DNA of 64,000 nt from a phage. The first letter of the stretch is position 1; each line of letters begins with the position of its first letter. The stretch lies in the NCBI GenBank assembly GCA_012813795.1, contig GCA_012813795.1_4087.1. One strand, given 5' to 3'. Position numbers and translations under genes: made by a program. Of the stretch, positions 19,419-44,468 are shown one piece after another. A model generated the notes under the pieces. It saw nothing but the letters and a program-made list of their open reading frames with translations, ran no database searches and was not told the DNA's origin.

Positions 19419-19725
19419 CTAATATTGCACTCACTATTTCAACAAGAACATCTCCGTGACATGATTTGGGCTTACAAAAGCACCCAAGACGCTTCCCAGC
19501 CAATTCAAGTAGTTCTTCGATAGTAACCTCACCATTATCAATTCTTTGGATAAGATACTCTCTGAACTTCTCAATCGACTCTTCTCGTGTCGGAACTATA
19601 AACTCTGCCTTTGTTTGTTTGTCATTAATGTGGGTAAATGGATTTCCCCATTTAGACCCACGACCAATATACACATCATATGGTTCTTTATATTTGTTAA
19701 CTACAATTGGTTTTAAGTCCATCAT
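19390..19725 (-). CDS. conserved small phage protein (DUF4326-like)
   Basis: 111 aa; motifs [12 protein letters not shown] and [13 protein letters not shown]; inserted between nrdG and the GrcA-like gene. Confidence 0.45.
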
Positions 19726-20084
19726 AGACCTTTAGTAAAAGTACGATTGATTACATCATCTTGTTGTTCTTTTGTTAGTGAATTGAAACGAACTGCATAA
19801 CCACTAACACGAATTGTAAGTTGCGGATACTTTTCTGGATTATTTTGTGCATCAATGAGTTGTTCTTTAGATAGAACATTTACATTCAAGTGCTGACCAC
19901 CTTCAATATTCGGTGCGTGTTGAATTTCCACATCACGCAGTACCTCACCATCAAAAGTACTCAAAAGTACTTCATCATCTTCGGAAATGGTCTTTGATAC
20001 AATAATACGTGCAATATCATTTTCTATTAGCATGATAGTTCCACGGTGCTCACCAGACATGACTTGTTTACCTTGAATTGACAT
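19722..20084 (-). CDS. autonomous glycyl-radical cofactor (GrcA/YfiD-like, T4 Y06I-type)
   Basis: 120 aa; C-terminus [11 protein letters not shown]...[20 protein letters not shown]...Q.DVI.RTFT is near-identical to the glycyl-radical domain of GrcA. Confidence 0.85.
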
Positions 20085-20093
20085 AATATCTCC

Positions 20094-21899
20094 TTACATG
20101 TGTTGTATACGTTGAATAACTTCAGCTTGTTTACCTTTATTGAACGGGCGACTATTTGGGGCACTAAGATATCCCGAAACTCTGCGAATAACCGACATTG
20201 TGCGTTCATTGCGGTTGTCACATACCGGACAATGGAAACCATTTTTATCTACACTAAATTCACCCTCAAAATCACATTCAAAACACTTATCGACCTTCTG
20301 ATTAATACCAAAATATGGAATTTTAGTATAAGCAAAATTTATTAATGTTTCAAGTGCTTGTATATTATTAGCTAGATTTGGTGTTTCAACATAGCTAATA
20401 TTACCACCATTGCTTAGATAAGCAAAGTTTTCCTCATAATCCCATTTAGCAAAAGGTGTACTTTCAACCCATACTGGTTGATGGAATGAGTTAGTGATAA
20501 AGTCACGTTTCAGTACTGAAGGATGTTTTGCCTCAATACAACGTGCAAATTTATAACATAGTGATTCTGCTGGTGTACCGTAAAGACTAAATGCAATGTT
20601 ACTCTCTTTTTTGAATTCATCACATTTTGCTTTCATGTAGTTCAAAATACTCATACAGAACTCTTTACTAATAGAACCAGTGAGGATCTCTGAACACTCA
20701 GATAACCCAACATAACCAATACTGATACTAGCATAACCATTATAAAATAAATGGTCAATAGTGTCTTCAGGATCAAGACGTGCAATCGCACCTTCAGCGA
20801 AAAGTATAGGGTTTTGTTTTGCCTTTGTACCTTTTAAACGTTCTACACGGTTCATCTGTGCTCTGTAAGCAATATTCATGTGCTCATCAATCTTATCAAA
20901 GAAATCACCATCAGACTCACTCTCAAGAGCAATTAGTGGTAAGTTGATAGACACAACGCCAAGGTTGAATCTACCATTGTATTTTTCTTCTCCTTGTATA
21001 TTTTCCCATTTCCCTAAGAAACTTCTGCATCCCATAGGAGTAACAGGAATAGTTGTGCTTCCAGTAACTTTTTGATTCAAAGGTACGGATACAAAATCAG
21101 GATAGATGCGTTTAGCTGCACAACGCATAGCTAATTGTTTTAAGTCATAATTACAATCAGTACTGTTCATATTAATTCCATCCTGAAGAAAGAATATTAC
21201 TTTAGGAAATACTGGAGTAATCTTATCTTTACCTAGTCCATTTTCATGTACTTTCAAATATTGTTCAGTGATTAGTTTTTCAAATTTAGATGTACCTAAT
21301 CCTAAACTCAAAGAAATGAACGCAGCCTGGCCATTAGTACTGATCATTGAGTTTGTTTGATATAGAATTGTTTGACAACCGTCATAAACTTCCTTACGCA
21401 ACTCATCTTCGATGAATTCAGTGCTAAGATTGTATTTCTTTTGTTTTTCTAGGAGTTTATCCCATGACTTTTGTACATATGGTGCAAGGCCAGTGTCAAT
21501 GTGAGCCAACGACTGACCACCGTATTGTGAGCTTGCAACAGCCTGAACGATCTGGGTTAGTACTGTACAAGCTACCCCAAAGCTTTTTGGTTCTTCAATC
21601 TTGGCACAACCAATCATGAAGCCATTAGCAAGCATATCAGGATAATTAACTAAACAACAGTTTGTTAATGGGCTAATGTAATAGTCTAAATCATGAATAT
21701 GACCGTAACCTTCATTATGCCACTTCATCAATTCATCAGGAATCACATCTTGGGAATAATGTTTAGAAAGAATACCTGCCAATAAATCACGATGTGTATT
21801 AACACATTTAGCGTCTTTATTTGCATTTTCGTTTGTTAAATCAGCGTTACTCTGGTTGAGGAAGTTAGTTACGTCCGTATATAATTTATCTATTTGCAT
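20094..21899 (-). CDS. nrdD: anaerobic ribonucleoside-triphosphate reductase
   Basis: 601 aa; C-terminal Zn-ribbon (CFECD...CPVCDN) followed by glycyl-radical motif RRVSGYL; ATG at 21897-21899 with AAGGAA RBS. Confidence 0.9.
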   Translation of the reverse strand: MQIDKLYTDVTNFLNQSNADLTNENANKDAKCVNTHRDLLAGILSKHYSQDVIPDELMKWHNEGYGHIHDLDYYISPLTNCCLVNYPDMLANGFMIGCAKIEEPKSFGVACTVLTQIVQAVASSQYGGQSLAHIDTGLAPYVQKSWDKLLEKQKKYNLSTEFIEDELRKEVYDGCQTILYQTNSMISTNGQAAFISLSLGLGTSKFEKLITEQYLKVHENGLGKDKITPVFPKVIFFLQDGINMNSTDCNYDLKQLAMRCAAKRIYPDFVSVPLNQKVTGSTTIPVTPMGCRSFLGKWENIQGEEKYNGRFNLGVVSINLPLIALESESDGDFFDKIDEHMNIAYRAQMNRVERLKGTKAKQNPILFAEGAIARLDPEDTIDHLFYNGYASISIGYVGLSECSEILTGSISKEFCMSILNYMKAKCDEFKKESNIAFSLYGTPAESLCYKFARCIEAKHPSVLKRDFITNSFHQPVWVESTPFAKWDYEENFAYLSNGGNISYVETPNLANNIQALETLINFAYTKIPYFGINQKVDKCFECDFEGEFSVDKNGFHCPVCDNRNERTMSVIRRVSGYLSAPNSRPFNKGKQAEVIQRIQHM

Positions 21900-22036
21900 T
21901 TCACATTCCTTGTATGTTATTCGTTTGGGTGAATTTATTTAACTTCAACAAAGAGCATTATAGCCTCATATTGGCCTTTTTCTCTTGACCTAAATCAAGG
22001 AAAAGTGCAATTGATTAAGTACTGTACAAACACAAA

Positions 22037-22055
22037 AAGCACCACTTGGGTGCTT
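22037..22055 (-). terminator. candidate intrinsic terminator (minus strand)
   Basis: Stem AAGCACC/GGTGCTT followed by a short T-run; stem sequence is the same family as the hairpin at 18768. Confidence 0.4.
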
Positions 22056-22132
22056 TATAGAATAGACAAAATAACAACTGACCAGATTAGCATAACATAT
22101 AAATTGCAATTACACAGCATCCAATGAATAGT

Positions 22133-22318
22133 TTAATTAGTCTCATCTGGACTCCATGTAATAGTTACAGTAAATGTACCTTCCTGGAAGCCATATTCAT
22201 CTTGTGGGATTTGTTCAGCTAATGGGTTAAATCTTGAATCAAAAGCTTCATGCACATCTCTTTGGATATCATATAGACTTTCACCATCATATTCTTTTTT
22301 GAAGATTTCATTCTGCAT
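22133..22318 (-). CDS. hypothetical protein
   Basis: 61-aa track ORF, acidic. Confidence 0.45.
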   Translation of the reverse strand: MQNEIFKKEYDGESLYDIQRDVHEAFDSRFNPLAEQIPQDEYGFQEGTFTVTITWSPDETN

Positions 22319-22718
22319 TTAAACGTAACGACCCTCTGAATGTGTCTGGATAACTGTCTAATAGATCGATTAGTCTATTAAACGCATGAGTACTGATGAA
22401 TGGATGTTTCTTCGCGAGTTCGATGCGTTTCTCAAAATCCATTAATGTAATCTCGGTTCTATTGAAACTACCTTTACGTCTGTACGTTAGTAAACGCTCT
22501 TTGTGTCCATTAAGCTGGAAATCAAAATATGTTGTTGTAGTATAATCACTATCATCACTGATAGGCTTTGAAAAATCCAGATTATACGTAGAACCAAATG
22601 CGAAAAAGAAACCACCATCTTCCAATGGGATATCTTTATCGCTTAGATTGAAATCTGATTCATCGCATAAAATATCAAATATCTTTCTACTTAATTTTAG
22701 AAACTCATCTTCTAACAT
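22308..22718 (-). CDS. hypothetical protein
   Basis: 136-aa track ORF. Confidence 0.5.
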   Translation of the reverse strand: MLEDEFLKLSRKIFDILCDESDFNLSDKDIPLEDGGFFFAFGSTYNLDFSKPISDDSDYTTTTYFDFQLNGHKERLLTYRRKGSFNRTEITLMDFEKRIELAKKHPFISTHAFNRLIDLLDSYPDTFRGSLRLNAE

Positions 22719-22720
22719 AG

Positions 22721-22942
22721 TTATTCCTCGTTTTCATTTGGAATACAATATACAAATACTAAATGCTTAAAGTGATCAGTACTGGAATATAATGCCAATT
22801 CATGTAATGGGAAATTTGTATCTTTAAATTTACCATTTTCGTATATAGTTATTTGTAACGAATGTTTTGGCTCAAAAATATAATAGTACATTATTGATTC
22901 ACCAAAAAGTACAGTATGGTGCTGATATCGTTCAATTTTCAT
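22721..22942 (-). CDS. hypothetical protein
   Basis: Track ORF 22721..22990 trimmed to the ATG (MKIERYQ) that overlaps the upstream TGA stop as ATGA. Confidence 0.5.
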   Translation of the reverse strand: MKIERYQHHTVLFGESIMYYYIFEPKHSLQITIYENGKFKDTNFPLHELALYSSTDHFKHLVFVYCIPNENEE

Positions 22943-23307
22943 GTATGGATAATCTCTTTTACCCCGTACTCCTGAATTGCTAATGTACAAATCTCACAAG
23001 GTTTAGCTGGTACTGGGATACCATCTTTGCTTACACGAGCGATAAGAAGAGTATGTACTTCAGCACGAGCAGCAAGAAGACACGAAATTTCAGCGTGTAA
23101 AAATTCCCCTTGTGGACGACCAGCACGAATTGCAAAGCCTTTCTGCTTAGGGTGAGTCTGTGTGTAAGAGTTGGTACGAGTAGCCAGTACTCGACCTTTC
23201 TTATCCAGTGCACGAGCAATTACTCTATACCGTTTGTAATTGCCAACTTGTTCAATCGGCGGCATCTCACGGAGTTCTTCTACCAGTTTAAGCAATTTCG
23301 GGTTCAT
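22939..23307 (-). CDS. small cytidine/deoxycytidylate-deaminase-fold protein
   Basis: 122 aa; zinc-deaminase motifs HAE (HAEISCL) and PCxxC (PCEIC); distinct from the canonical dCMP deaminase at 43989. Confidence 0.65.
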   Translation of the reverse strand: MNPKLLKLVEELREMPPIEQVGNYKRYRVIARALDKKGRVLATRTNSYTQTHPKQKGFAIRAGRPQGEFLHAEISCLLAARAEVHTLLIARVSKDGIPVPAKPCEICTLAIQEYGVKEIIHT

Positions 23308-23921
23308 ATGTTGTAGTCTATACCTTTTCTAAGTGATTCCTCAAGCACCCATAGTTTACATTCCTCGGATTGTAAATGTTTGTTTGCCTCTTCTTGTTCT
23401 TCTATTGTACAAGTTTTGAGGAATTCTTTCAAGGCTTTTATTGTACCTTTAATGTTTTCAATATCACCTGGAATATAATCAAGTTCAATTTCAGATAATT
23501 TTGAGTTCTCCCATGTGTTACGAAGTTCTTCTGGTTGGAACATTGATGAAGGAAAAACACTTTTCGTCACTACACGCTGATGTACAGAATCATACTTAGC
23601 TTCCGCTTCTTCTTGTGTGTAATCACCGTACTTTTCTAGGATCTTGGTGTATAAATTATCAATTGCTTCTTCATATGTATCACCACCACAATCCAACTCG
23701 TACTCATGTCCACGAACAAACTTCCCTTCGTCTTCATCGAAAAAAGGAGTTAGCATTTCGATCCAGTACTGTGTTTTTGTATTCAGGGCCGGATAATCTT
23801 CAATTCGATTTGTGATGGGACATACATCGTGTGGCTCAACATCAATGCGAGCATCAACGTAGTCTTTATTGATAAATTCAGGGTGTCCCAAAATCCACCA
23901 GTACTTTTGTGATGTAGTCAT
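23304..23921 (-). CDS. hypothetical protein
   Basis: 205-aa track ORF, acidic. Confidence 0.55.
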   Translation of the reverse strand: MTTSQKYWWILGHPEFINKDYVDARIDVEPHDVCPITNRIEDYPALNTKTQYWIEMLTPFFDEDEGKFVRGHEYELDCGGDTYEEAIDNLYTKILEKYGDYTQEEAEAKYDSVHQRVVTKSVFPSSMFQPEELRNTWENSKLSEIELDYIPGDIENIKGTIKALKEFLKTCTIEEQEEANKHLQSEECKLWVLEESLRKGIDYNI

Positions 23922-23965
23922 ATAGTCTCCATAAAAAGTACTGCCACATGGACAGTACTGAACTA

Positions 23966-24769
23966 TTAGTAGTCTTCGTTATATGCAAAAGCGTAATGAG
24001 AAATTAGTTTATCGTTATACGATACTAAGGTGTAATGTCTACCTTCATCTGATTCAAATAAGCGGTATTCGATTTGACCCCATTTTTCTTTTTTAATGCG
24101 TTTTGCTTTTTCAACATCATATTCTTGCTTTAGGAATGCTTTACAATCAGCAGTCGTTTTGATATCAACGGAATCGGGACTATACAATGAACGCCCAATA
24201 ACTTCAGACATAAAGGCATTAATACCTTTATTCTTACTTTCATCAATATCCATATGACTTTCAAAAGTGCCAATTTCAATCAATTCTAAATTAGAAAGCT
24301 TACTCCATTCTATTAATGTAATATTATCAAGAAGGCAGTAATCATCTTCAAGTTCACCGATATTGGTTTTCATACCAAACATTAGATAAGTTCCATCATT
24401 TGCAGTATCCGGTTTACCTAAAACGACAGTTCCATCACAATTGTTTAATGCACATTTTAGGTCATCTGCTTCTTCTTCACAATCAACATCGGCATTTTTA
24501 TAAATCGTATCAAAAACCCATTGTTTGTCATGTAACGGAATAACAAAATCATCAACATTGGTAATCTGTTCTTTCCAATCTAGTAATGGACTTACGGTTT
24601 GATTGATTTCTGGAATAACTAAAACGTTTGGTTCAGAAACTACTTCATCATATACATTAACATCTTCATAAGTGACGAGAAGAGAACGAGAAGGTTTAGG
24701 ACATTTCAATGTATGTGGTTCATGGTAGAATTTAGTTTTTGAACAATGCTTACAGATTGGATTCGACAT
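23966..24769 (-). CDS. hypothetical protein
   Basis: Track ORF 23966..24937 trimmed to the ATG (MSNPICKHCSK) with GAGGA RBS, which removes the long overlap with the upstream gene; N-terminal Cys pairs. Confidence 0.55.
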   Translation of the reverse strand: MSNPICKHCSKTKFYHEPHTLKCPKPSRSLLVTYEDVNVYDEVVSEPNVLVIPEINQTVSPLLDWKEQITNVDDFVIPLHDKQWVFDTIYKNADVDCEEEADDLKCALNNCDGTVVLGKPDTANDGTYLMFGMKTNIGELEDDYCLLDNITLIEWSKLSNLELIEIGTFESHMDIDESKNKGINAFMSEVIGRSLYSPDSVDIKTTADCKAFLKQEYDVEKAKRIKKEKWGQIEYRLFESDEGRHYTLVSYNDKLISHYAFAYNEDY

Positions 24770-33899: not shown

Positions 33900-36800
33900 A
33901 TGAAACCAATAGCTGGCTTAGATCAATTTCCATTTGTTATAGGTGGATTGCAGGTTACTGCTGCAAAGATAGAAGGGCAAGTATTTGTTAAAGAATTGTA
34001 TGTTATAAAACAAAGAACATTCGATTCGTATGATTTGATATCTGAAAATTTCAAGATTTACAAAGATATAAAAATCACAGGTAGAAATAAAGATAAATCA
34101 ACATTGACGTATGATGATGACGATGCTGAAATTGCTAAATCTTTAGCAAATAATACATTTTGCATAAAAGAATCTGATGATTTTAACAAAAAATATGGTT
34201 TTGGTATACAATATCAATTGAATAAAATAAAATTACATAATGGTGAAGTGATATTTAGACAATCCTCAATTCGACCATCAGTACTTAATGGTGTTTTCAT
34301 TACACCGAGTTCATTTGAGATTGATGTTGGTCAACAACAAGTATTTGACGCGATATATGATCCACAAAGTTGGATTAATAAAAATGGTACTTGGGATTAT
34401 GATAAATCAGTTTTTGATGTGGTTTCTTTTACACAAACATCAATCACACTTCTCGCTAAACAAGATGCCATTAATACAGAAATAAAATATTCACCTACTG
34501 GACGAGAAATAAATCGCATAGCAGTCAGTATAGGTTCAGTAGTAGATAACACTTCTATAATTAAAAACATTTCAATAACACCTAATGTCATAAATTCCAA
34601 ATTATCTGAAGATTTTACAGTTAATGTAGTTTATGATCCTATCAAATATAAATTCAAATCAGGTAAATGGTCTGTCAGTGATACATCAGTACTACAATTT
34701 GTTTCTGGTGATGGTGAAACTGCGACATTTAAACCTATCAGCGTTGGTTCTTCCACAATAACATTCACATTAGATAAAGATAGTACAAAAACTGCAACTG
34801 CATCAGTTGAAGTATCTTATGCAGATTTAAAATCCGTCACAATATCACCAGAAAATGTAACTGGTACTATAGGTGAAACTGGTAGTATTTCAATAAGTTA
34901 TGTACCAGATAATGCACAAAAAGGTGGTTCATGGGCTATTTCTGATAAATTAATACTAAAAGAATTATCATCGACAATATCAGAATTTGATTATGAATTG
35001 GTTGGTAATGGAACAACATATGCTACATTCGTCCCATTAGCTAATTATGATGGTTCAATGATAACTGCTAAATTTGATGTTAACTATTCAAAACTTGAAA
35101 ACATTGTTCTTACACCTTCATCAGTTAGTAATCTAGTTCCAGGCGACACAGGAAAAATTAGTATTGAATATACACCAAGTACTGTTGAAACTGGTGGTAC
35201 ATGGTCATTCAATCCAACTGGTGTAATAGAACAAGATCTCAGCAAAAGTACGAGTACTGAAATGTATTATAATGTATTAATCCCAGGTACATCAACTGCA
35301 ACATTCCACCCAACTGCGTCATATGATGGAACTCCTAAAACTGTTTCATTTGAAGTTGGGAATTCCGAGTTAACTGGTATTACGCTAACACCTACTACAT
35401 CAACCGTAAAAATTGGTGATGATTTCTATATTGATATTACATATGAACCAAACACTGCTCTACATGAAGGTACATGGAATACATCAGATTTTGAGAAATA
35501 TGTAACACTCGAATCAGATAGTACACCTGATCGTGCACATTTTAAAGCTATAGGTGTGATTGATTCTGTTAATCTGACATATTCAAAAGGAACAATTAGT
35601 GCAACTAACAAATGTGCAGTTAATTATTCTGATTTAAAATCTATCACATTAAGTCCAACTGCAACATATGCTAAACTTGGTGATGATTTCTATGTAGATA
35701 TTGCATATGATCCAGACACAGCACAACACACGGGTTCATGGAATACATCAGATTTTGAGAAATATGTAACACTAGAATCAGATAGTACACCTGACCGTGC
35801 ACACTTCAAAGCAATTGATTTAGTTGATGAAGTTGATTTGGTATATTCGAATGGTAATATAAGTGATACGAATTATTGTGGAGTTAGTCGTCCACCATTA
35901 ATTTCAGTTTCATTGTCACCTTCTTCTGAAAAAGTTAAAGTTGGTGATTCCTTTAATGTGAAGATTACATATAACCCTAATACTGCTCAACATTACGGTG
36001 AATGGAATTTGGATGAAATAAAAGAATATCTTACATATGATTCGGATCTTAGTGTTTATGATGTGGCTGTGTTTGATGTTATTAAACGTTCTGAAACACC
36101 AATAGAATTGAAATTTACAAGTGCAGGTAAAACTGCAACAAACACTTGTGAATTTGAAGAAGCTGTGTTAACCGGAATTTCATTGAAAATACAAGAAAAT
36201 ACGCCAATATACGACAGCCTATATGTTGTACCATATAAAGGTGACATATATATTGATGTTCTACCTATTCCAGCCGACGCAAAATTACCAGACGATATTG
36301 GAACCATCACTGATAATACGGGATTATATGATTTAACGTTTTTTGATTTTTTGAGTTTTAATAAAGAAAAAAGTACAAATCACCGTTTGTATTTTGATTT
36401 TGTTTCATCATTTGATGAGTATATGTATTTTATTGAGGAATCTTCAAAAGGATTAATATTCACATATACACTGTCTAATGGTATGACGGTAGACTCACCG
36501 GCAATGGTAACAAATTTTCCAGAACTGACGAAAGTCACCCTTGTGCCATCATCTGGAAAATGTGATGTTAACTCAATAATAAAATGCGAGGCAACACTTG
36601 ATAATGGTATGTCAACTTATTATATTAATCCGTTGAGTACTTATACAAGTGAACACGAGGATTATTTGGTAATTGAAGATAGAACATCCTTTCAGCCGTT
36701 TGATGAATTCCTTGAACCAATTGAAATTGTAGGTAAACTTCCAACAAATATATATGTACCAGATGGTAATTACGTATATTTCACATATACACTATCAACC

Positions 36801-37187
36801 ACACCTGCCCAACCGTTGATTGATTATAATATTTACATATATGATAGTAATGAATGTATAAAAGGACGTATAAAAAATCCAACAGACGTAGTTAACATAA
36901 AATATATGAATGTCTTTTTCTTTGACATAGAGAATAATCCACCAAATGCTTTATATAGAGGAAAAATGGAAGGTGGTATTCCTGTTACGTTTCAATATGA
37001 CACCCAAAATTCTAGATTAAATTCGTATACTTATATGGTACAGGGGGTAACTGATGGACCAATAACTCTAAAATACACTTCATCTGCTACTGGTGTTATT
37101 AGAACTGCACAAGTTGATGTTACTGGACCAATGACTGATGATAGTAATAAAACTGATGAGGGGGGTGATGGTGATTTACTTAAATGA
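33900..37187 (+). CDS. large Ig-like (Big_2-type) repeat protein 1
   Basis: 1095 aa; about 7 tandem ~90-aa units with the recurring pattern ...TP..(V/K)(L/I).GD.F...I.Y.P.TA.H.G.W...; distinct ~330-aa C-terminal region. Confidence 0.75.
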   Translation: MKPIAGLDQFPFVIGGLQVTAAKIEGQVFVKELYVIKQRTFDSYDLISENFKIYKDIKITGRNKDKSTLTYDDDDAEIAKSLANNTFCIKESDDFNKKYGFGIQYQLNKIKLHNGEVIFRQSSIRPSVLNGVFITPSSFEIDVGQQQVFDAIYDPQSWINKNGTWDYDKSVFDVVSFTQTSITLLAKQDAINTEIKYSPTGREINRIAVSIGSVVDNTSIIKNISITPNVINSKLSEDFTVNVVYDPIKYKFKSGKWSVSDTSVLQFVSGDGETATFKPISVGSSTITFTLDKDSTKTATASVEVSYADLKSVTISPENVTGTIGETGSISISYVPDNAQKGGSWAISDKLILKELSSTISEFDYELVGNGTTYATFVPLANYDGSMITAKFDVNYSKLENIVLTPSSVSNLVPGDTGKISIEYTPSTVETGGTWSFNPTGVIEQDLSKSTSTEMYYNVLIPGTSTATFHPTASYDGTPKTVSFEVGNSELTGITLTPTTSTVKIGDDFYIDITYEPNTALHEGTWNTSDFEKYVTLESDSTPDRAHFKAIGVIDSVNLTYSKGTISATNKCAVNYSDLKSITLSPTATYAKLGDDFYVDIAYDPDTAQHTGSWNTSDFEKYVTLESDSTPDRAHFKAIDLVDEVDLVYSNGNISDTNYCGVSRPPLISVSLSPSSEKVKVGDSFNVKITYNPNTAQHYGEWNLDEIKEYLTYDSDLSVYDVAVFDVIKRSETPIELKFTSAGKTATNTCEFEEAVLTGISLKIQENTPIYDSLYVVPYKGDIYIDVLPIPADAKLPDDIGTITDNTGLYDLTFFDFLSFNKEKSTNHRLYFDFVSSFDEYMYFIEESSKGLIFTYTLSNGMTVDSPAMVTNFPELTKVTLVPSSGKCDVNSIIKCEATLDNGMSTYYINPLSTYTSEHEDYLVIEDRTSFQPFDEFLEPIEIVGKLPTNIYVPDGNYVYFTYTLSTTPAQPLIDYNIYIYDSNECIKGRIKNPTDVVNIKYMNVFFFDIENNPPNALYRGKMEGGIPVTFQYDTQNSRLNSYTYMVQGVTDGPITLKYTSSATGVIRTAQVDVTGPMTDDSNKTDEGGDGDLLK
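35415..35825 (+). repeat. near-identical intragenic tandem duplication (period about 273 bp)
   Basis: Two copies sharing an almost identical ~60-bp core (catggaatacatcagattttgagaaatatgtaacact.gaatcagatagtacacctga), encoding the duplicated peptide SDFEKYVTLESDSTPDRAHFKAI. Confidence 0.8.
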
Positions 37188-37223
37188 TTATAAATTAATT
37201 TTAATGCTAAGGAGAAATATTTT

Positions 37224-39743
37224 ATGGCAGAATTAAAATCAATTAGATTTAACAATAATGGTGTTGTAAACAGCACCATTTATAAAACCAGTACTATAAC
37301 GGTTACATATGACCCAGTTGATTGGTATGATCAAACTGGGAAATGGGTATATGATAGTACGTATATTAAAGTGTTGTATAGGAGTGGTGAGAAACTTATT
37401 TTCAAAACACTCAAAGAAGGAAACACAAATATATCATTTTCACCAACTAATTATGATTCTTTAAAACAAACGTGTACTGTTGATATTCATACCGATACAG
37501 TTCAAAGTATCTCATTGAATCCAACTGAAAACATGTTGAAGTATAGTTCTGAATTTGAAATCGATGTCACTTATAACCCACCAATTGGCACGGATCTTCC
37601 AACATGGACATATGATAAAAATGTTTTAACATATGATGCTGAAAAAAGTACAAGGGATAAAGCTTTCTTTAAAGTAAATTCTAGTGTTTTAAGTCCAGTA
37701 TCAGGTAAGATTACATGTACGTATGGTGTAGATTTATCAGCGGAAAGTTTTTATTACGTGTCCGAAAACCCCGCATCACGTGTAAAATTGTCTCCTGATA
37801 CATCAAACGTACTACTTGGTGATACGTTCTCAGTTAATATTTTATATGATCCACTTGGGTGTGATAAAACTGGTGTATGGAGTTACGATGATACATGTCT
37901 TGAATACAACGAATCACGCTCAACTTCTGATGTTGCATATTTTAAAGCAATTAAAACACCAGAAGGAAATAATGACACGTTAAAATTAACATATAAATGT
38001 GCATCATCCGTGTCCGATTCAACAACGTGTACAATATCATATGATCCATTGCAATCAGTTAAATTGACAACAATCCCAGCTTCATTGAATCCAGATGCAA
38101 TGATAAACGTAAAAGCTGGGGATGGGTTTAGTGTTAAGGTCACATATGTCCCAGACACCGCCAGACATGATGGTGTTTTGAATTTTAACCCACTATATTT
38201 CACCTATGAAAAAGACCAATCTGCACAAGACACTTTTTTAATCACACCAATTCTACCATCTATAGACACTGATGAACCTGTGCAGCCGATATCTTTTACT
38301 TCTAACGGGATTATATCAAATATACTCAATTTCACAATAGATTATTCTGACCTTGTTTCGGTATCTTTTGACCCACCAGAAGTTAATACAACCGCTGGTT
38401 CTGTATTTGGTGTAACTGTGATTTATAATCCAAGCACAGCTAAAAATGACGGTGAATGGAACATTGCTAATGTTCTGGATTATATTAAAAAAGGAACAAC
38501 AGTCGGTGATTCAACTTCATTCCAATCTTTGAAAGCCACAGTTGATAGTGATGGAAACCCATCAAGTATAGATATGGTTTACAAAAGTGGTTATATCAGT
38601 ACACCTATTAAATGTAACATTGATTATAGTGAGTTGAAATCTATTAATGTAAAATGTGATCCGTCATATCCACTGAATACTTCTCTTGGGATAATAGCAA
38701 CATATACACCAGACACCGCAAAACATGATGGTGTATGGACATGTTCATCAGATTTAATTCCAGGTGCATCTACTCCAGATCTTGGGTCATTCCGTACAGG
38801 TAAATTAGTAAATGCAAAAAGTGTAGTTACTGTAACATCTAAATCCAATAAAGATATTGGTGCATCATGTGGATTTACCTCAACTTATTCTAAGTTAAAA
38901 GGTATAACAGTAACACCACTTGGAACAACAACAGTTAAACCTGGTGATTCATTTGGTATACAAATATCGTATAATCCAAACACTGCACAGCATCTTGGTA
39001 TGTATAATTGGGATTTTAACCCTGATTATTTTGAATATAACTATGAGTTGTCAGAGCCAAACAAAGATATACAATATTTTAATGCTTTATTACCCACACC
39101 AGAAGAAGGTTCAGTACTAACATGTCTCCCACCTGAAGGGTCTGGTGCTACATCTGGTAAATGTGTAATAACCGTTAGTTATCCTCCAATCAAATCAGTG
39201 TCTATTGAACCACCTGAATCAACTCATAAATTTGGTGATGTGTTCAACCTTATCGTGAAATATGATCCAGATACAGCAAGAAAAATGGGTACATGGGAAT
39301 ATGATAAAGATCGAATAGCATTAGTTAATCCGGTAACCGACCTTAACGATCAAGCAACATTTTATGTTATCAATAACGGTATAGGTGGAGAAACGGATAT
39401 ATCATATTCATATTATCCAGGCGTAACTGCAACACATAAGTGTACTGTAGAATATGAAAACTTGGATACCCTAAGTTTAGTTCCTCCAAGAATCAAGAAA
39501 AAACCAGGTAATACTTTCTATATAAAAATCATATACACACCAGATGGTGCATTACATGATGGTACATGGACATACAATAAAACTGTATTTGAATATACAC
39601 AGGAAAGTACTAAAGATTTGGGAGTTTTTAAAATTTCCGACACTGCTCCTGAAGGTGCATACCAATTATCATATCAACCAAAAACTGCTGATCCAGATCA
39701 AACATTCCCACCTGTAATTTTACAATGCACTATTACAAAATAA
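37224..39743 (+). CDS. large Ig-like repeat protein 2
   Basis: 839 aa; about 9 repeat units of the same type; GGAGAAA RBS. Confidence 0.75.
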   Translation: MAELKSIRFNNNGVVNSTIYKTSTITVTYDPVDWYDQTGKWVYDSTYIKVLYRSGEKLIFKTLKEGNTNISFSPTNYDSLKQTCTVDIHTDTVQSISLNPTENMLKYSSEFEIDVTYNPPIGTDLPTWTYDKNVLTYDAEKSTRDKAFFKVNSSVLSPVSGKITCTYGVDLSAESFYYVSENPASRVKLSPDTSNVLLGDTFSVNILYDPLGCDKTGVWSYDDTCLEYNESRSTSDVAYFKAIKTPEGNNDTLKLTYKCASSVSDSTTCTISYDPLQSVKLTTIPASLNPDAMINVKAGDGFSVKVTYVPDTARHDGVLNFNPLYFTYEKDQSAQDTFLITPILPSIDTDEPVQPISFTSNGIISNILNFTIDYSDLVSVSFDPPEVNTTAGSVFGVTVIYNPSTAKNDGEWNIANVLDYIKKGTTVGDSTSFQSLKATVDSDGNPSSIDMVYKSGYISTPIKCNIDYSELKSINVKCDPSYPLNTSLGIIATYTPDTAKHDGVWTCSSDLIPGASTPDLGSFRTGKLVNAKSVVTVTSKSNKDIGASCGFTSTYSKLKGITVTPLGTTTVKPGDSFGIQISYNPNTAQHLGMYNWDFNPDYFEYNYELSEPNKDIQYFNALLPTPEEGSVLTCLPPEGSGATSGKCVITVSYPPIKSVSIEPPESTHKFGDVFNLIVKYDPDTARKMGTWEYDKDRIALVNPVTDLNDQATFYVINNGIGGETDISYSYYPGVTATHKCTVEYENLDTLSLVPPRIKKKPGNTFYIKIIYTPDGALHDGTWTYNKTVFEYTQESTKDLGVFKISDTAPEGAYQLSYQPKTADPDQTFPPVILQCTITK

Positions 39744-43689: not shown

Positions 43690-43992
43690 TTATAGTTCAA
43701 TATTACCAGATAACACACTGTAATCTTTATTCATAAGTTCACAAACATATGATACAGTTGAAACATCTTTGTAATAAATTGTTAACCCAAAACGACCACG
43801 GATACGTTCTTCTTTTTCTTGATACATGAATGTTCGTACAACGTAGTACTTATTATTCTTTGGTTCATAACGTGCTTCGTACCCTTTAACTTTGTAAGCA
43901 CTAGTAGAAGTACAAATAATCAATGACACAATAACCCACACGATTATAAAGAATGCCATTAGTCCAAGAAAAACAAAAGCTTGAATCATCAT
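43690..43992 (-). CDS. membrane-anchored hypothetical protein
   Basis: 100 aa; N-terminal TM (FVFLGLMAFFIIVWVIVSLII). Confidence 0.5.
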   Translation of the reverse strand: MMIQAFVFLGLMAFFIIVWVIVSLIICTSTSAYKVKGYEARYEPKNNKYYVVRTFMYQEKEERIRGRFGLTIYYKDVSTVSYVCELMNKDYSVLSGNIEL

Positions 43993-44468
43993 TTTAATCC
44001 CATGTCAAATATACAGTTAACTTCAATCCCAGCATCTTCCAGTACTTTAATAGCTTCTAGTGGAGTGCGAGGATACGATTTTTCGTAAATTACACGAGAA
44101 ATACCACTACCAGCGATTAACTTAGAACAAGTATAGCACGGTTGGAGTGTGGTGTAAAGTGTTGCACCCTGACGTTCTTGTGGTGAACTATATAGTAATG
44201 CATTCATTTCCGCATGGATCTCATGAATGTTGCTCCACTCGTGATGTAAGTGTTTTGCATCTTCATCAATCCAATTTTGAAATTGACCATTGTTTACGAG
44301 ATGTTTATTAACATCACAACAGTTAGGTTGCTTTGATGGTGTACCGTTATATCCAGTACTCAATACTCGGTTATTCTTTACAATAACACAACCTACTTTC
44401 TGGGAAAGACACTTACTTTCCTCAGCAACGACACTGGCTATCTTCAACCACGTTGTATGTTTCATCAT
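43989..44468 (-). CDS. cd: dCMP deaminase
   Basis: 159 aa; N-terminus WLKIASVVAEESKC parallels T4 Cd; zinc motifs HAEMNAL and PCYTCSK. Confidence 0.85.
   Translation of the reverse strand: MMKHTTWLKIASVVAEESKCLSQKVGCVIVKNNRVLSTGYNGTPSKQPNCCDVNKHLVNNGQFQNWIDEDAKHLHHEWSNIHEIHAEMNALLYSSPQERQGATLYTTLQPCYTCSKLIAGSGISRVIYEKSYPRTPLEAIKVLEDAGIEVNCIFDMGLK

What the first reader, a model, noticed from the sequence alone, without database searches (positions are those of the whole stretch)
22721..23307. Second, minimal zinc-deaminase-fold gene translationally coupled to a downstream ORF
Besides the canonical dCMP deaminase, a 122-aa protein carries the HAE and PCxxC zinc-deaminase motifs. Its TGA overlaps the ATG of the next gene as ATGA. 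Small stand-alone deaminases in phages may edit nucleotides for DNA modification or act on host nucleic acids.
Basis: partly seen in the sequence, partly recalled or inferred. Interest (0 to 1): 0.45.

Follow-up and report, generated by a model that had tools for sequence, protein, structure and literature searches.

The report
Minimal second deaminase in jumbo phage
A giant E. coli phage carries, besides its ordinary dCMP deaminase, a conserved 122-residue zinc deaminase that ends after the fourth strand of the fold; it belongs to a large, untested family found in phages, so the gene is real and already annotated but its substrate is unknown.

Summary
On the minus strand, 22939..23307 encodes a 122-aa protein with HAE (71-73) and PCEIC (103-107). 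Its TGA overlaps the ATG of a 73-aa ORF (22721..22942). It passes Pfam PF00383, and the zinc ligands and catalytic Glu are invariant in 91 relatives. dN/dS against PBECO4 is 0.04.

The window is an Asteriusvirus (97.5% to phage A4), where this gene is already annotated "dCMP deaminase". The canonical paralogue lies at 43989..44468.

New points:
- The protein has only the four-strand deaminase core and stops after strand 4.
- It fails four of the five dCMP-deaminase clade signatures; the paralogue passes all five.
- It belongs to a large family of 96-166-aa, basic proteins (median pI 9.7) that includes phiKZ gp260. I found no characterised member.
- Every RaK2-like phage checked keeps both deaminases, which argues against redundancy.
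- The ATGA coupling is generic (19 cases in the window). The 73-aa partner is Asteriusvirus-specific.
- The conserved partner is the upstream 205-aa gene, which also overlaps by ATGA.

Most likely function: an unregulated deoxycytidine-nucleotide deaminase, with the phosphate level unresolved. A polynucleotide-editing role is not excluded. Interest is moderate to low.

The parts
22939..23307 (-). Mini-deaminase gene, 122 aa. H71/C104/C107 are the predicted zinc ligands and E73 the catalytic Glu. HAE is at nt 23089-23097 and PCEIC at nt 22987-23001.
   Evidence: ORF. PF00383 30 bits against a 25-bit cut-off. Invariant residues. AF2 model with pLDDT 92 that ends after strand 4. dN/dS 0.043 against PBECO4.
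23304..23921 (-). Conserved upstream gene, 205 aa. Its TGA overlaps the deaminase ATG. It has an N-terminal alpha+beta domain of about 105 aa and a C-terminal helical hairpin. Function unknown.
   Evidence: phrog_16370, no Pfam hit. Homologues lie directly upstream of the deaminase in RaK2, GAP32, XbC2, PBECO4 and five IMG/VR contigs. Invariant H13 N47 W53 E55 H72 D77 G79 G80 E85 A86. AF2 pLDDT 89.7.
22721..22942 (-). Downstream 73-aa ORF whose ATG overlaps the deaminase TGA. A real gene, but lineage-specific and of unknown function.
   Evidence: No Pfam, PHROG or PADLOC hit. 60% identical in PBECO4, where it is unannotated. dN/dS 0.17. Found only in Asteriusvirus loci.
22308..22718 (-). 136-aa ORF of unknown function, next gene in the same apparent unit.
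   Evidence: phrog_28285. Present in PBECO4 and 121Q; not detected in the other RaK2-like loci.
22133..22318 (-). 61-aa ORF of unknown function, conserved downstream of the deaminase across RaK2-like phages.
   Evidence: phrog_11659. 69% identical to RaK2_519, which directly follows the RaK2 deaminase. Hits in L019, L021 and L022.
23937..23959 (-). Terminator-like hairpin just upstream of the 205-aa gene.
   Evidence: Consensus scan: 4 sites found against 1.6 expected. Pattern match only.
22036..22056 (-). Terminator-like hairpin after the 61-aa ORF and before nrdD. With the hairpin above, it brackets a five-gene unit.
   Evidence: Pattern match only.
20094..21899 (-). nrdD, anaerobic ribonucleoside-triphosphate reductase. 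Conserved 0.5-2 kb downstream of the mini-deaminase in RaK2-like phages.
   Evidence: PF13597 E 7e-163. Synteny.
43989..44468 (-). Canonical dCMP deaminase paralogue, 159 aa. It carries all five dCMP-deaminase clade signatures.
   Evidence: PF00383 78 bits. 97% identical to A4_461. Sequence. Orthologues in every RaK2-like genus checked.

Best explanation
The gene encodes an active, zinc-dependent hydrolytic deaminase of the cytidine/deoxycytidylate deaminase superfamily. It belongs to a distinct clade of minimal proteins, found in phages, that includes phiKZ gp260.

Predicted chemistry: His71, Cys104 and Cys107 hold the zinc-bound water, and Glu73 shuttles the proton. Asn46, Ala72, Glu73 and Pro103 correspond to the residues that contact the deoxycytidine moiety in T4 dCMP deaminase.

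I think it most likely deaminates a free deoxycytidine nucleotide to the deoxyuridine nucleotide, feeding thymidylate synthesis. The phosphate level (dCMP, dCDP or dCTP) is unresolved. A di- or triphosphate is attractive for two reasons: the protein is very basic, and in RaK2-like phages it sits just upstream of the anaerobic reductase NrdD, which makes dNTPs.

The protein ends after strand 4 and has no second zinc site. It therefore lacks the segments that in canonical dCMP deaminases build the hexamer and the dCTP/dTTP allosteric site, and it should be unregulated. This would make it complementary to, rather than a copy of, the regulated canonical enzyme encoded 21 kb away.

Shown here: family membership, conservation of catalytic residues, purifying selection, truncated architecture, synteny. 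Inferred: the substrate and the physiological role.
For: Family membership and conservation:
- PF00383 above cut-off, and 91 of 91 family members hit it.
- N46, H71, E73, P103, C104 and C107 are invariant; A72 is near-invariant.
- dN/dS is 0.043.

Similarity to dCMP deaminases:
- The best PDB profile match is the cyanophage S-TIM5 dCMP deaminase, 6.4e-9, followed by the S. mutans, T4 and human dCMP deaminases.
- The helix-3/strand-4 segment PCxxCxxAIxxxGVKxhhY resembles that of these enzymes in the printed alignments.
- The T4 dC-contacting residues Asn40, Ala105, Glu106 and Pro131, listed in PMC12697855, have conserved counterparts here.

Precedent: phage PF00383 enzymes that have only the catalytic metal site are biochemically proven dCTP deaminases (PhiR1-37, DSS3_VP1).

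Context and properties:
- Conserved position just upstream of nrdD/nrdG in four genera, with a thymidylate kinase gene in between in XbC2.
- pI 9.67 for this protein, and the family median is also 9.67.
- Every RaK2-like genome checked keeps both deaminases, consistent with distinct, complementary roles.
Against: - No member of this clade has been assayed; I found none in the literature.
- The protein lacks four of the five sequence signatures of the dCMP-deaminase clade given by Iyer et al. 2011.
- A uniformly basic family with no C-terminal elements over the active site would also suit a polynucleotide substrate.
- Distant family members (phiKZ, cyanophages, Aeromonas phages) do not sit near nucleotide-metabolism genes.
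- A terminator-like hairpin separates the unit from nrdD.
Confidence: 0.45

Rival explanations
1. It is a polynucleotide deaminase. It edits C-to-U or A-to-I in tRNA or mRNA, or C-to-U in single-stranded DNA of host or phage. The open, uncapped four-strand core admits a polymer.
For: - The family is uniformly basic: median pI 9.67 and 98% of members above 8, against 7.0 for the canonical paralogue.
- No helix 4, strand 5 or C-terminal cap is present.
- The second-best PDB profile match is a tRNA-specific deaminase of M. capricolum (2.4e-7), and TadA hits follow.
- Some phage PF00383 'dCMP deaminases' act on ssDNA in vitro (bioRxiv 10.1101/2024.12.05.627091).
- Co-retention with the canonical enzyme argues for a different job.
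- PHIKZ260 has its own transcription start site in an early-infection dRNA-seq map (PMC8244752).
Against: - It lacks the C-terminal helices that TadA/Tad2 use to hold tRNA (Iyer 2011), and the ExPCxMC-type motif; it reads AKPCEIC.
- No TadA model of NCBIfam matches at E up to 1.
- There are no tRNA genes in the window.
- Basic pI is common in small phage proteins and also fits triphosphate binding.
- MafB19-deam and Bd3614 Pfam hits do not discriminate, because the canonical paralogue hits them more strongly.
Confidence: 0.25
2. It deaminates another small cytosine-bearing molecule rather than a DNA precursor. Candidates are a nucleoside (C or dC salvage), a modified dC nucleotide, or a cytosine-containing immune signal such as cCMP. 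In the last case it would act as a counter-defence enzyme.
For: - Foldseek's best solved matches are homotetrameric cytidine deaminases and blasticidin S deaminase.
- About half of the family carries a short tail after strand 4 whose pattern, YT-x-x-G plus alternating hydrophobics, looks like the CDA-type beta4-beta5 hairpin.
- It fails the dCMP-deaminase signatures.
- It has a family-specific, nearly invariant H52-P53-x-Q55 motif and R91 of unknown role.
- Distant members sit among small early-type genes of unknown function.
Against: - TIGR01354 (tetrameric CDA) scores 14 bits against a cut-off of 114.
- No PADLOC match.
- No modification-type thymidylate synthase homologue lies next to it.
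- E. coli already has a cytidine deaminase (own knowledge), so nucleoside salvage adds little.
- The immune-signal idea has no direct support.
Confidence: 0.15
3. It is a non-catalytic or accessory subunit: a deaminase-fold protein that binds a nucleotide or partners with the upstream 205-aa protein without deaminating anything.
For: - The core is truncated.
- It is tightly and persistently linked to the 205-aa gene in RaK2-like phages, with overlapping stop and start.
Against: - The catalytic Glu and all three zinc ligands are invariant across 91 sequences averaging 26% column identity. Inactive paralogues typically lose the Glu.
- Distant family members occur without the 205-aa gene.
- Stand-alone homologues of the 205-aa protein's N-domain occur without a deaminase.
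Confidence: 0.05

Closest known systems
Small viral dCMP deaminases (cyanophage S-TIM5, PDB 4p9c; chlorovirus PBCV-1 bi-DCD, 7fh4)
   Same: - Best sequence-profile match in the PDB: 4p9c at 6.4e-9 over profile positions 10-117.
- Same HAE and PCxxC motifs.
- Similar helix-3/strand-4 segment.
- Small size and viral origin.
   Different: - S-TIM5 is 138 aa with about 20 more residues after strand 4.
- S-TIM5 carries the GWNGTP and HAEQNAL clade signatures (alignment).
- The window protein has NSYT and HAEISC instead, stops at strand 4, and has its own HPxQ insert.
T4-type canonical dCMP deaminase (PDB 1vq2), represented in this window at 43989..44468
   Same: Same superfamily and the same catalytic residues. 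The counterparts of the T4 dC-contacting Asn, Ala, Glu and Pro are conserved.
   Different: - The canonical paralogue has the second zinc site, NxxP, NA, TxxxT, Tyr after strand 4 and about 40 residues beyond strand 4. The mini protein has none of these, apart from a His/Tyr at the last position.
- tblastn between the two finds nothing.
- pI is 7.0 for the canonical protein against 9.7.
- Only the canonical one matches the PADLOC dCTP-deaminase model.
PF00383-family dCTP deaminases of dU-DNA phages (PBS1, DSS3_VP1, PhiR1-37; PMC12697855)
   Same: Phage-encoded zinc deaminases. Two of them (DSS3_VP1, PhiR1-37) have only the catalytic metal site. They show that 'dCMP deaminase' annotations can hide triphosphate specificity.
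   Different: - The named Yersinia hits I saw were fHe-Yen9-03 and fHe-Yen9-04. PhiR1-37 did not appear in the rows shown, but most hit rows were not listed, so I could not settle whether its enzyme is a relative.
- I know of no evidence that Asteriusvirus DNA contains dU.
TadA / Tad2 tRNA adenosine deaminases
   Different: There are no C-terminal helices, no match to an NCBIfam TadA model, and a different motif before the PC.
Homotetrameric cytidine deaminase and blasticidin S deaminase
   Same: Similar size (120-135 aa). These are the top Foldseek hits, TM 0.49-0.57. Longer family members seem to have a CDA-like beta4-beta5 hairpin.
   Different: - The first zinc ligand is His, not Cys.
- TIGR01354 scores far below its cut-off.
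- The window protein has no strand 5 at all.
phiKZ gp260 (PHIKZ260) and the 'second CMP/dCMP deaminase' of RaK2-like phages (GAP32_134, CBB_135, 121Q gp490, A4_486)
   Same: True homologues or orthologues: 33% identity to the phiKZ protein, 55-100% to the RaK2-like ones. Architecture is the same.
   Different: None in kind. These are database annotations without experiments. The phiKZ version reads HSE instead of HAE and has a longer N-terminus.

Membership tests
Cytidine/deoxycytidylate deaminase superfamily (Pfam PF00383, CDA fold) | Match to the family HMM above the curated cut-off | tested here: met
   30 bits against a cut-off of 25, E 5e-7, model positions 20-99 of 102. All 91 aligned relatives also match.
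Cytidine/deoxycytidylate deaminase superfamily (Pfam PF00383, CDA fold) | H/C-x-E at the start of helix 2 and PCxxC at the start of helix 3 (zinc ligands and catalytic Glu) | tested here: met
   H71-A72-E73 lies at the start of predicted helix 72-80. P103-C104-x-x-C107 lies at the start of helix 105-114. These residues are invariant in 29 and in 91 sequences.
Cytidine/deoxycytidylate deaminase superfamily (Pfam PF00383, CDA fold) | Three-layer alpha/beta/alpha core with a four-strand sheet in 2-1-3-4 order (Iyer et al. 2011) | tested here: met
Cytidine/deoxycytidylate deaminase superfamily (Pfam PF00383, CDA fold) | A fifth strand, either parallel after helix 4 or antiparallel as a hairpin, described for the deaminase families in Iyer et al. 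2011 | tested here: not met
   The protein ends one residue after strand 4 (E118-121 of 122), with only 15 residues after the CxxC. Among 148 family representatives, 63 have 19 or fewer residues there.
Cytidine/deoxycytidylate deaminase superfamily (Pfam PF00383, CDA fold) | Zinc binding and hydrolytic deamination | not testable with these tools
   Needs purified protein.
dCMP deaminase / ComE clade (signatures from Iyer et al. 2011, PMC3239186) | [quoted passage not shown] | tested here: not met
   The insert (residues 46-70) has one helix and no Cys. The protein's only Cys residues are C76, C104 and C107, and C76 is not conserved. The canonical paralogue has C20, C49/C50 and the His cluster.
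dCMP deaminase / ComE clade (signatures from Iyer et al. 2011, PMC3239186) | NxxP at the end of strand 2 | tested here: not met
   The window protein reads N46-S-Y-T; the nearest Pro is P53. The paralogue reads GYNGTP.
dCMP deaminase / ComE clade (signatures from Iyer et al. 2011, PMC3239186) | [quoted passage not shown] | tested here: not met
   HAEISC here and HAEIxxL in the family. HAEMNAL in the paralogue.
dCMP deaminase / ComE clade (signatures from Iyer et al. 2011, PMC3239186) | TxxxT in strand 3 | tested here: not met
   HTLLIARV here. ATLYTT in the paralogue.
dCMP deaminase / ComE clade (signatures from Iyer et al. 2011, PMC3239186) | [quoted passage not shown] | tested here: inconclusive
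   The aligned position is His121 here and Tyr in most relatives (consensus ...VxYT). No helix 4 follows it.
dCMP deaminase / ComE clade (signatures from Iyer et al. 2011, PMC3239186) | Allosteric regulation by dCTP/dTTP, and dCMP-to-dUMP activity | not testable with these tools
   The sequence after strand 4 is absent, so I infer there is no canonical allosteric site. The activity has not been measured.
TadA / Tad2 tRNA adenosine deaminase | Extra C-terminal helices beyond the core that bind tRNA (Iyer et al. 2011), and a match to curated TadA models | tested here: not met
   There are no residues beyond strand 4. The NCBIfam scan at E up to 1 returns only a 14-bit hit to tetrameric CDA.
Homotetrameric cytidine deaminase (TIGR01354) | Match to the equivalog model above its cut-off | tested here: not met
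   14.4 bits against a cut-off of 113.65.

The most novel reading that the evidence does not exclude
The phiKZ-gp260-like mini-deaminases are a distinct, very widespread clade, found so far only in phages, that retains only the four-strand catalytic core. There are at least 868 clusters at 50% identity with E of 1e-10 or better. Their real substrate may not be a DNA precursor. It could be a polymer (tRNA, mRNA or ssDNA) or a cytosine-bearing signal, which would make them an unrecognised class of phage editing or counter-defence enzymes and unusually compact scaffolds for base editors. In RaK2-like phages they might work together with the always-adjacent 205-aa protein.
Probability: 0.25. Interest if true: 0.7.

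Novelty: new variant of a known kind. Interest (0 to 1): 0.35.

Why it matters
If the mini-deaminase only duplicates dCMP deamination, this is routine phage nucleotide metabolism.

What makes it worth an assay:
- Every RaK2-like jumbo phage checked keeps both enzymes.
- The small one has lost everything outside the catalytic core, including the regulatory parts.
- Hundreds of sequence clusters of equally small, basic relatives exist in phage-derived data, and I found none that has been tested.

Recent work shows that 'dCMP deaminase' annotations in phages hide dCTP-specific and 5-methylcytosine-selective enzymes that also act on ssDNA. A naturally 100-125-residue deaminase with a defined substrate could therefore be of practical use as well as clarifying how jumbo phages manage pyrimidine pools under aerobic and anaerobic growth.

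Tried and rejected
1. Downstream 73-aa ORF as a functional partner, or as a supplier of the missing strand 5 through frameshift or readthrough. Rejected. The ORF is absent outside Asteriusvirus, while the deaminase ends at the same residue there. The junction ATCCATACATGAAAA shows no slippery heptamer. ATGA overlaps are generic.
3. MafB19-deam and Bd3614-deam Pfam hits in the family as a sign of toxin-like nucleic-acid deaminases. Rejected as non-discriminating, because the canonical dCMP deaminase hits both more strongly.
4. Single-sequence PDB search found nothing relevant; only family profiles work.
5. tRNA genes as candidate substrates nearby: none in the window.
6. Bacterial homologues: a pattern scan of 185,579 species genomes found none, but that scan is pattern-limited. 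The broader alignment A3 was too divergent for it.
7. Literature on PHIKZ260 or gp260: only a transcription start site mention.
8. PhiR1-37 dCTP deaminase as a characterised family member: not seen in the rows of tblastn hits that were shown, and most rows were not listed.
9. Gene context of distant members (phiKZ-like, cyanophage, Aeromonas phage): only small hypothetical genes.
Full report
**What is in the sequence.** The coordinates cover two minus-strand ORFs. The first, 22939..23307, encodes 122 aa (MNPKLL...VKEIIHT). The second, 22721..22942, encodes 73 aa starting MKIERYQ. HAE is residues 71-73 and PCEIC is residues 103-107. The deaminase TGA overlaps the next ATG in CATACATGAAAATT. The upstream 205-aa gene (23304..23921) overlaps the deaminase ATG in the same way (AACATATGAACCCG). 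A second, canonical deaminase of 159 aa lies at 43989..44468 on the minus strand.

**Where the window comes from.** Positions 21900-24000 are 97.5% identical to Escherichia phage A4, an Asteriusvirus jumbo myovirus of the RaK2-like group. They are about 80-84% identical to PBECO4-type phages over part of that stretch. In A4 the gene is A4_486, annotated 'dCMP deaminase'. PBECO4 calls it hypothetical, and 121Q and GAP32 call it 'dCMP deaminase'. [quoted passage not shown] The existence of a second deaminase-like gene in these phages is thus known at the annotation level.

**Is it a real deaminase gene?**
- Pfam PF00383 scores 30 bits against a cut-off of 25.
- PHROG 174 gives 5.8e-13.
- In 29 relatives, H71, A72, E73, P103, C104 and C107 are invariant.
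- In 91 much more diverse relatives (mean column identity 26%), N46, H71, E73, P103, C104 and C107 stay invariant. H52, P53, Q55, A72, R91, G96, A101 and A110 are nearly so.
- Against PBECO4, the non-synonymous proportion is 0.064, the synonymous proportion 0.657, and dN/dS 0.043.
- An AlphaFold2 model is confident (pLDDT 92).
- Its solved-structure neighbours are all deaminases. Foldseek puts tetrameric cytidine deaminase, blasticidin S deaminase and human dCMP deaminase on top.

**What kind of deaminase.** The model's elements are helix 3-14, strands 28-34 and 40-45, helix 53-61, helix 72-80 (HAE), strand 86-92, helix 105-114 (PCxxC) and strand 118-121. The protein then ends. Iyer et al. 2011 define the core of the fold as four strands in 2-1-3-4 order plus a variably placed fifth strand: a hairpin in the CDA clade, or a strand after helix 4 in all the other deaminase families (PMC3239186). 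This protein has the core only. The Pfam match ends at model position 99 of 102, so the protein is essentially the Pfam 'zinc-binding region' and nothing more.

The same paper lists five signatures of the dCMP deaminase/ComE clade:
- a bihelical insert carrying a second zinc site;
- NxxP after strand 2;
- NA two residues after HxE;
- TxxxT in strand 3;
- Tyr after strand 4.

The canonical paralogue has all five: C20, GYNGTP, CC...HxH, HAEMNAL, TLYTT and VIYEKSY. The mini protein has no Cys in the insert, NSYT, HAEISC and HTLLIARV. At the last position it has His121, which is Tyr in most relatives.

By profile search the nearest solved proteins are still dCMP deaminases: S-TIM5 at 6.4e-9, S. 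mutans at 4.5e-7, T4 at 2e-5 and human at 9e-5. tRNA deaminases are interleaved, with M. capricolum at 2.4e-7 and TadA at 2e-4. NCBIfam gives only a 14-bit hit to tetrameric CDA, whose cut-off is 114. I therefore file the protein in the superfamily but not in the dCMP deaminase, TadA or T-CDA families.

**The family.**
- A profile search of 1.84 billion representative proteins gave 3,895 hits at E of 1e-3 or better and 868 at 1e-10 or better. The best 150 are all 96-166 aa.
- Among 148 of these with a recognisable PCxxC, 63 end within 19 residues of it, as the window protein does. The other 85 have a longer tail.
- The longer tails I inspected read like a turn plus one strand (for example YYTNKEGELIELE and YTTDDGYAFEKRI). 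I read this as an optional CDA-type beta4-beta5 hairpin. That is an inference from sequence pattern only.
- The family is strikingly basic: median pI 9.67 and 98% above 8 for the 200 sequences I held. The window protein is 9.67 and the canonical paralogue 7.03.
- In GenBank phages, tblastn finds the family in 196 records. These are RaK2-like jumbo phages of Escherichia, Klebsiella, Salmonella, Cronobacter, Erwinia, Serratia, Yersinia, Pectobacterium and Xanthomonas, plus phiKZ-type Pseudomonas phages (PHIKZ260, 33% identity, HSE motif), T4-like cyanophages and Aeromonas phages.
- A pattern-limited scan of one genome for each of 185,579 bacterial and archaeal species found no relative.
- I found no experiment on any member. 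For PHIKZ260 there is only a primary transcription start site in an early-infection dRNA-seq map (PMC8244752).

**Neighbourhood.** In RaK2 (Alcyoneusvirus), GAP32 and XbC2 (Mimasvirus), PBECO4 and 121Q (Asteriusvirus) and four further IMG/VR jumbo-phage contigs, a homologue of the 205-aa protein lies immediately upstream. It is 35-58% identical. The stop/start overlap itself was seen in the annotated records; the IMG/VR loci show adjacency only.

The downstream side varies. The 73-aa ORF and the following 136-aa ORF were found only in Asteriusvirus. In RaK2 the deaminase is followed directly by the homologue of the window's 61-aa ORF (22133..22318). nrdD follows within 0.5-2 kb in all of them. 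The 73-aa ORF is nevertheless a real gene: it is 60% identical in PBECO4, where it is unannotated, with dN/dS 0.17.

ATGA overlaps are generic. There are 19 on the minus strand of this window, including the one after the canonical deaminase. Terminator-like hairpins at 23959-23937 and 22056-22036 bracket the 205-aa gene, the deaminase, the 73-aa, 136-aa and 61-aa ORFs as an apparent unit separate from nrdD. These are pattern matches only, 4 found against 1.6 expected.

Distant family members (phiKZ-like, cyanophage, Aeromonas phage and short metagenomic contigs) sit among small hypothetical genes, and tblastn finds no 205-aa homologue in those loci.

**Both deaminases are retained.** Orthologues of the canonical enzyme (67-97% identical) were found in the RaK2-like genera listed, including RaK2, K64-1, Muenster, EJP2, 7t3, GAP32, CBB, the Erwinia phages and all the Asteriusviruses. 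The same genomes carry the mini enzyme at 55-100% identity. Co-retention over this divergence argues against simple redundancy.

**How it most likely works.** Zinc-dependent hydrolytic deamination is well supported by the invariant His, Cys, Cys and Glu. For the substrate I favour a free deoxycytidine nucleotide, with confidence about 0.45. The grounds are:
- its closest sequence relatives are dCMP deaminases;
- it has conserved counterparts of the T4 residues that contact the dC moiety, Asn40, Ala105, Glu106 and Pro131 (PMC12697855);
- it sits next to the anaerobic reductase genes in four genera;
- phage PF00383 enzymes that carry only the catalytic metal site are known to be dCTP deaminases (PhiR1-37, DSS3_VP1).

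NrdD reduces triphosphates (established biochemistry; the Pfam family name says the same). An unregulated dCTP-to-dUTP step beside it would make metabolic sense and would fit the basic charge. This step is inference. Without the sequence after strand 4 and without the second zinc site, canonical allosteric control is unlikely.

The main rival, at about 0.25, is a polynucleotide-editing enzyme. It is favoured by the basic pI, the uncapped core, the interleaved tRNA-deaminase hits, and reports that phage 'dCMP deaminases' can act on ssDNA (bioRxiv 10.1101/2024.12.05.627091). Against it stand the lack of any TadA-type RNA-binding helices and the lack of direct evidence. Other small cytosine-bearing substrates (about 0.15) and a non-catalytic role (about 0.05) are less likely.

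**Verdict.** The finding is correct as an observation, but the gene is already annotated in close relatives. The emphasis on coupling to the downstream ORF is misplaced. What my analysis adds:
- the gene belongs to a large, uncharacterised clade of core-only, basic mini-deaminases found in phages;
- it fails the dCMP-deaminase signatures;
- it is co-retained with the canonical enzyme;
- in RaK2-like phages it is persistently paired with an unknown upstream gene.

That makes it a reasonable target for a simple substrate screen, but not a surprising discovery in itself.

Noticed in passing
window 19722..20084 (-): A 120-aa ORF directly after nrdD matches Pfam Gly_radical (E 1.9e-17). It ends ...[25 protein letters not shown], like the C-terminus of pyruvate formate-lyase or GrcA. 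NrdD itself (20094..21899) keeps its own glycyl-radical domain. This looks like a phage-encoded stand-alone 'spare' glycyl-radical protein. A4 annotates it 'pyruvate formate-lyase'.
   Followed up: partly
window 43690..44468 (-): The canonical dCMP deaminase (43989..44468) also overlaps by ATGA a downstream 100-aa ORF (43690..43992). That ORF has no Pfam hit, and relatives annotate it as a virion structural protein. In Sharanji, slurp01 and KP13-7 the canonical deaminase is annotated 'tRNA-specific adenosine deaminase'. It carries all five dCMP-deaminase signatures, so that label looks like a mis-annotation.
   Followed up: partly
window 33900..39743 (+): Two very large plus-strand ORFs (1095 aa and 839 aa) are built of many similar repeat modules of about 90 residues (recurring ...Y.P..A...G.W... 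motifs). The window is not collinear with phage A4 here. From A4 coordinates the canonical deaminase was expected near 37.4 kb but lies at 44.0-44.5 kb, implying about 6.6 kb of extra sequence.
   Followed up: no
window 23304..23921 (-); loci L016 3327-3770 and L017 2836-3279: The N-terminal domain of about 105 aa of the 205-aa protein is an uncharacterised phage domain family with invariant His, Asn, Trp, Glu, His, Asp and Gly-Gly residues. In two metagenomic contigs a stand-alone version overlaps a dUTPase gene by 8 nt, which is again a nucleotide-metabolism neighbour.
   Followed up: partly
window 23937..23959 and 22036..22056 (-): Two terminator-like hairpins bracket the five small genes from the 205-aa gene to the 61-aa ORF. 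They suggest a separate transcription unit just upstream of nrdD.
   Followed up: no
window, whole minus strand: Nineteen ORFs of at least 60 aa end in an ATGA that starts a downstream ORF of at least 40 codons. Four-base stop/start overlap is thus a general feature of gene packing in this genome.
   Followed up: yes
L002 6449..6670 (PBECO4, KC295538): The 73-aa ORF downstream of the deaminase is conserved but not annotated in the PBECO4 GenBank record. The record leaves a 228-bp gap there.
   Followed up: yes
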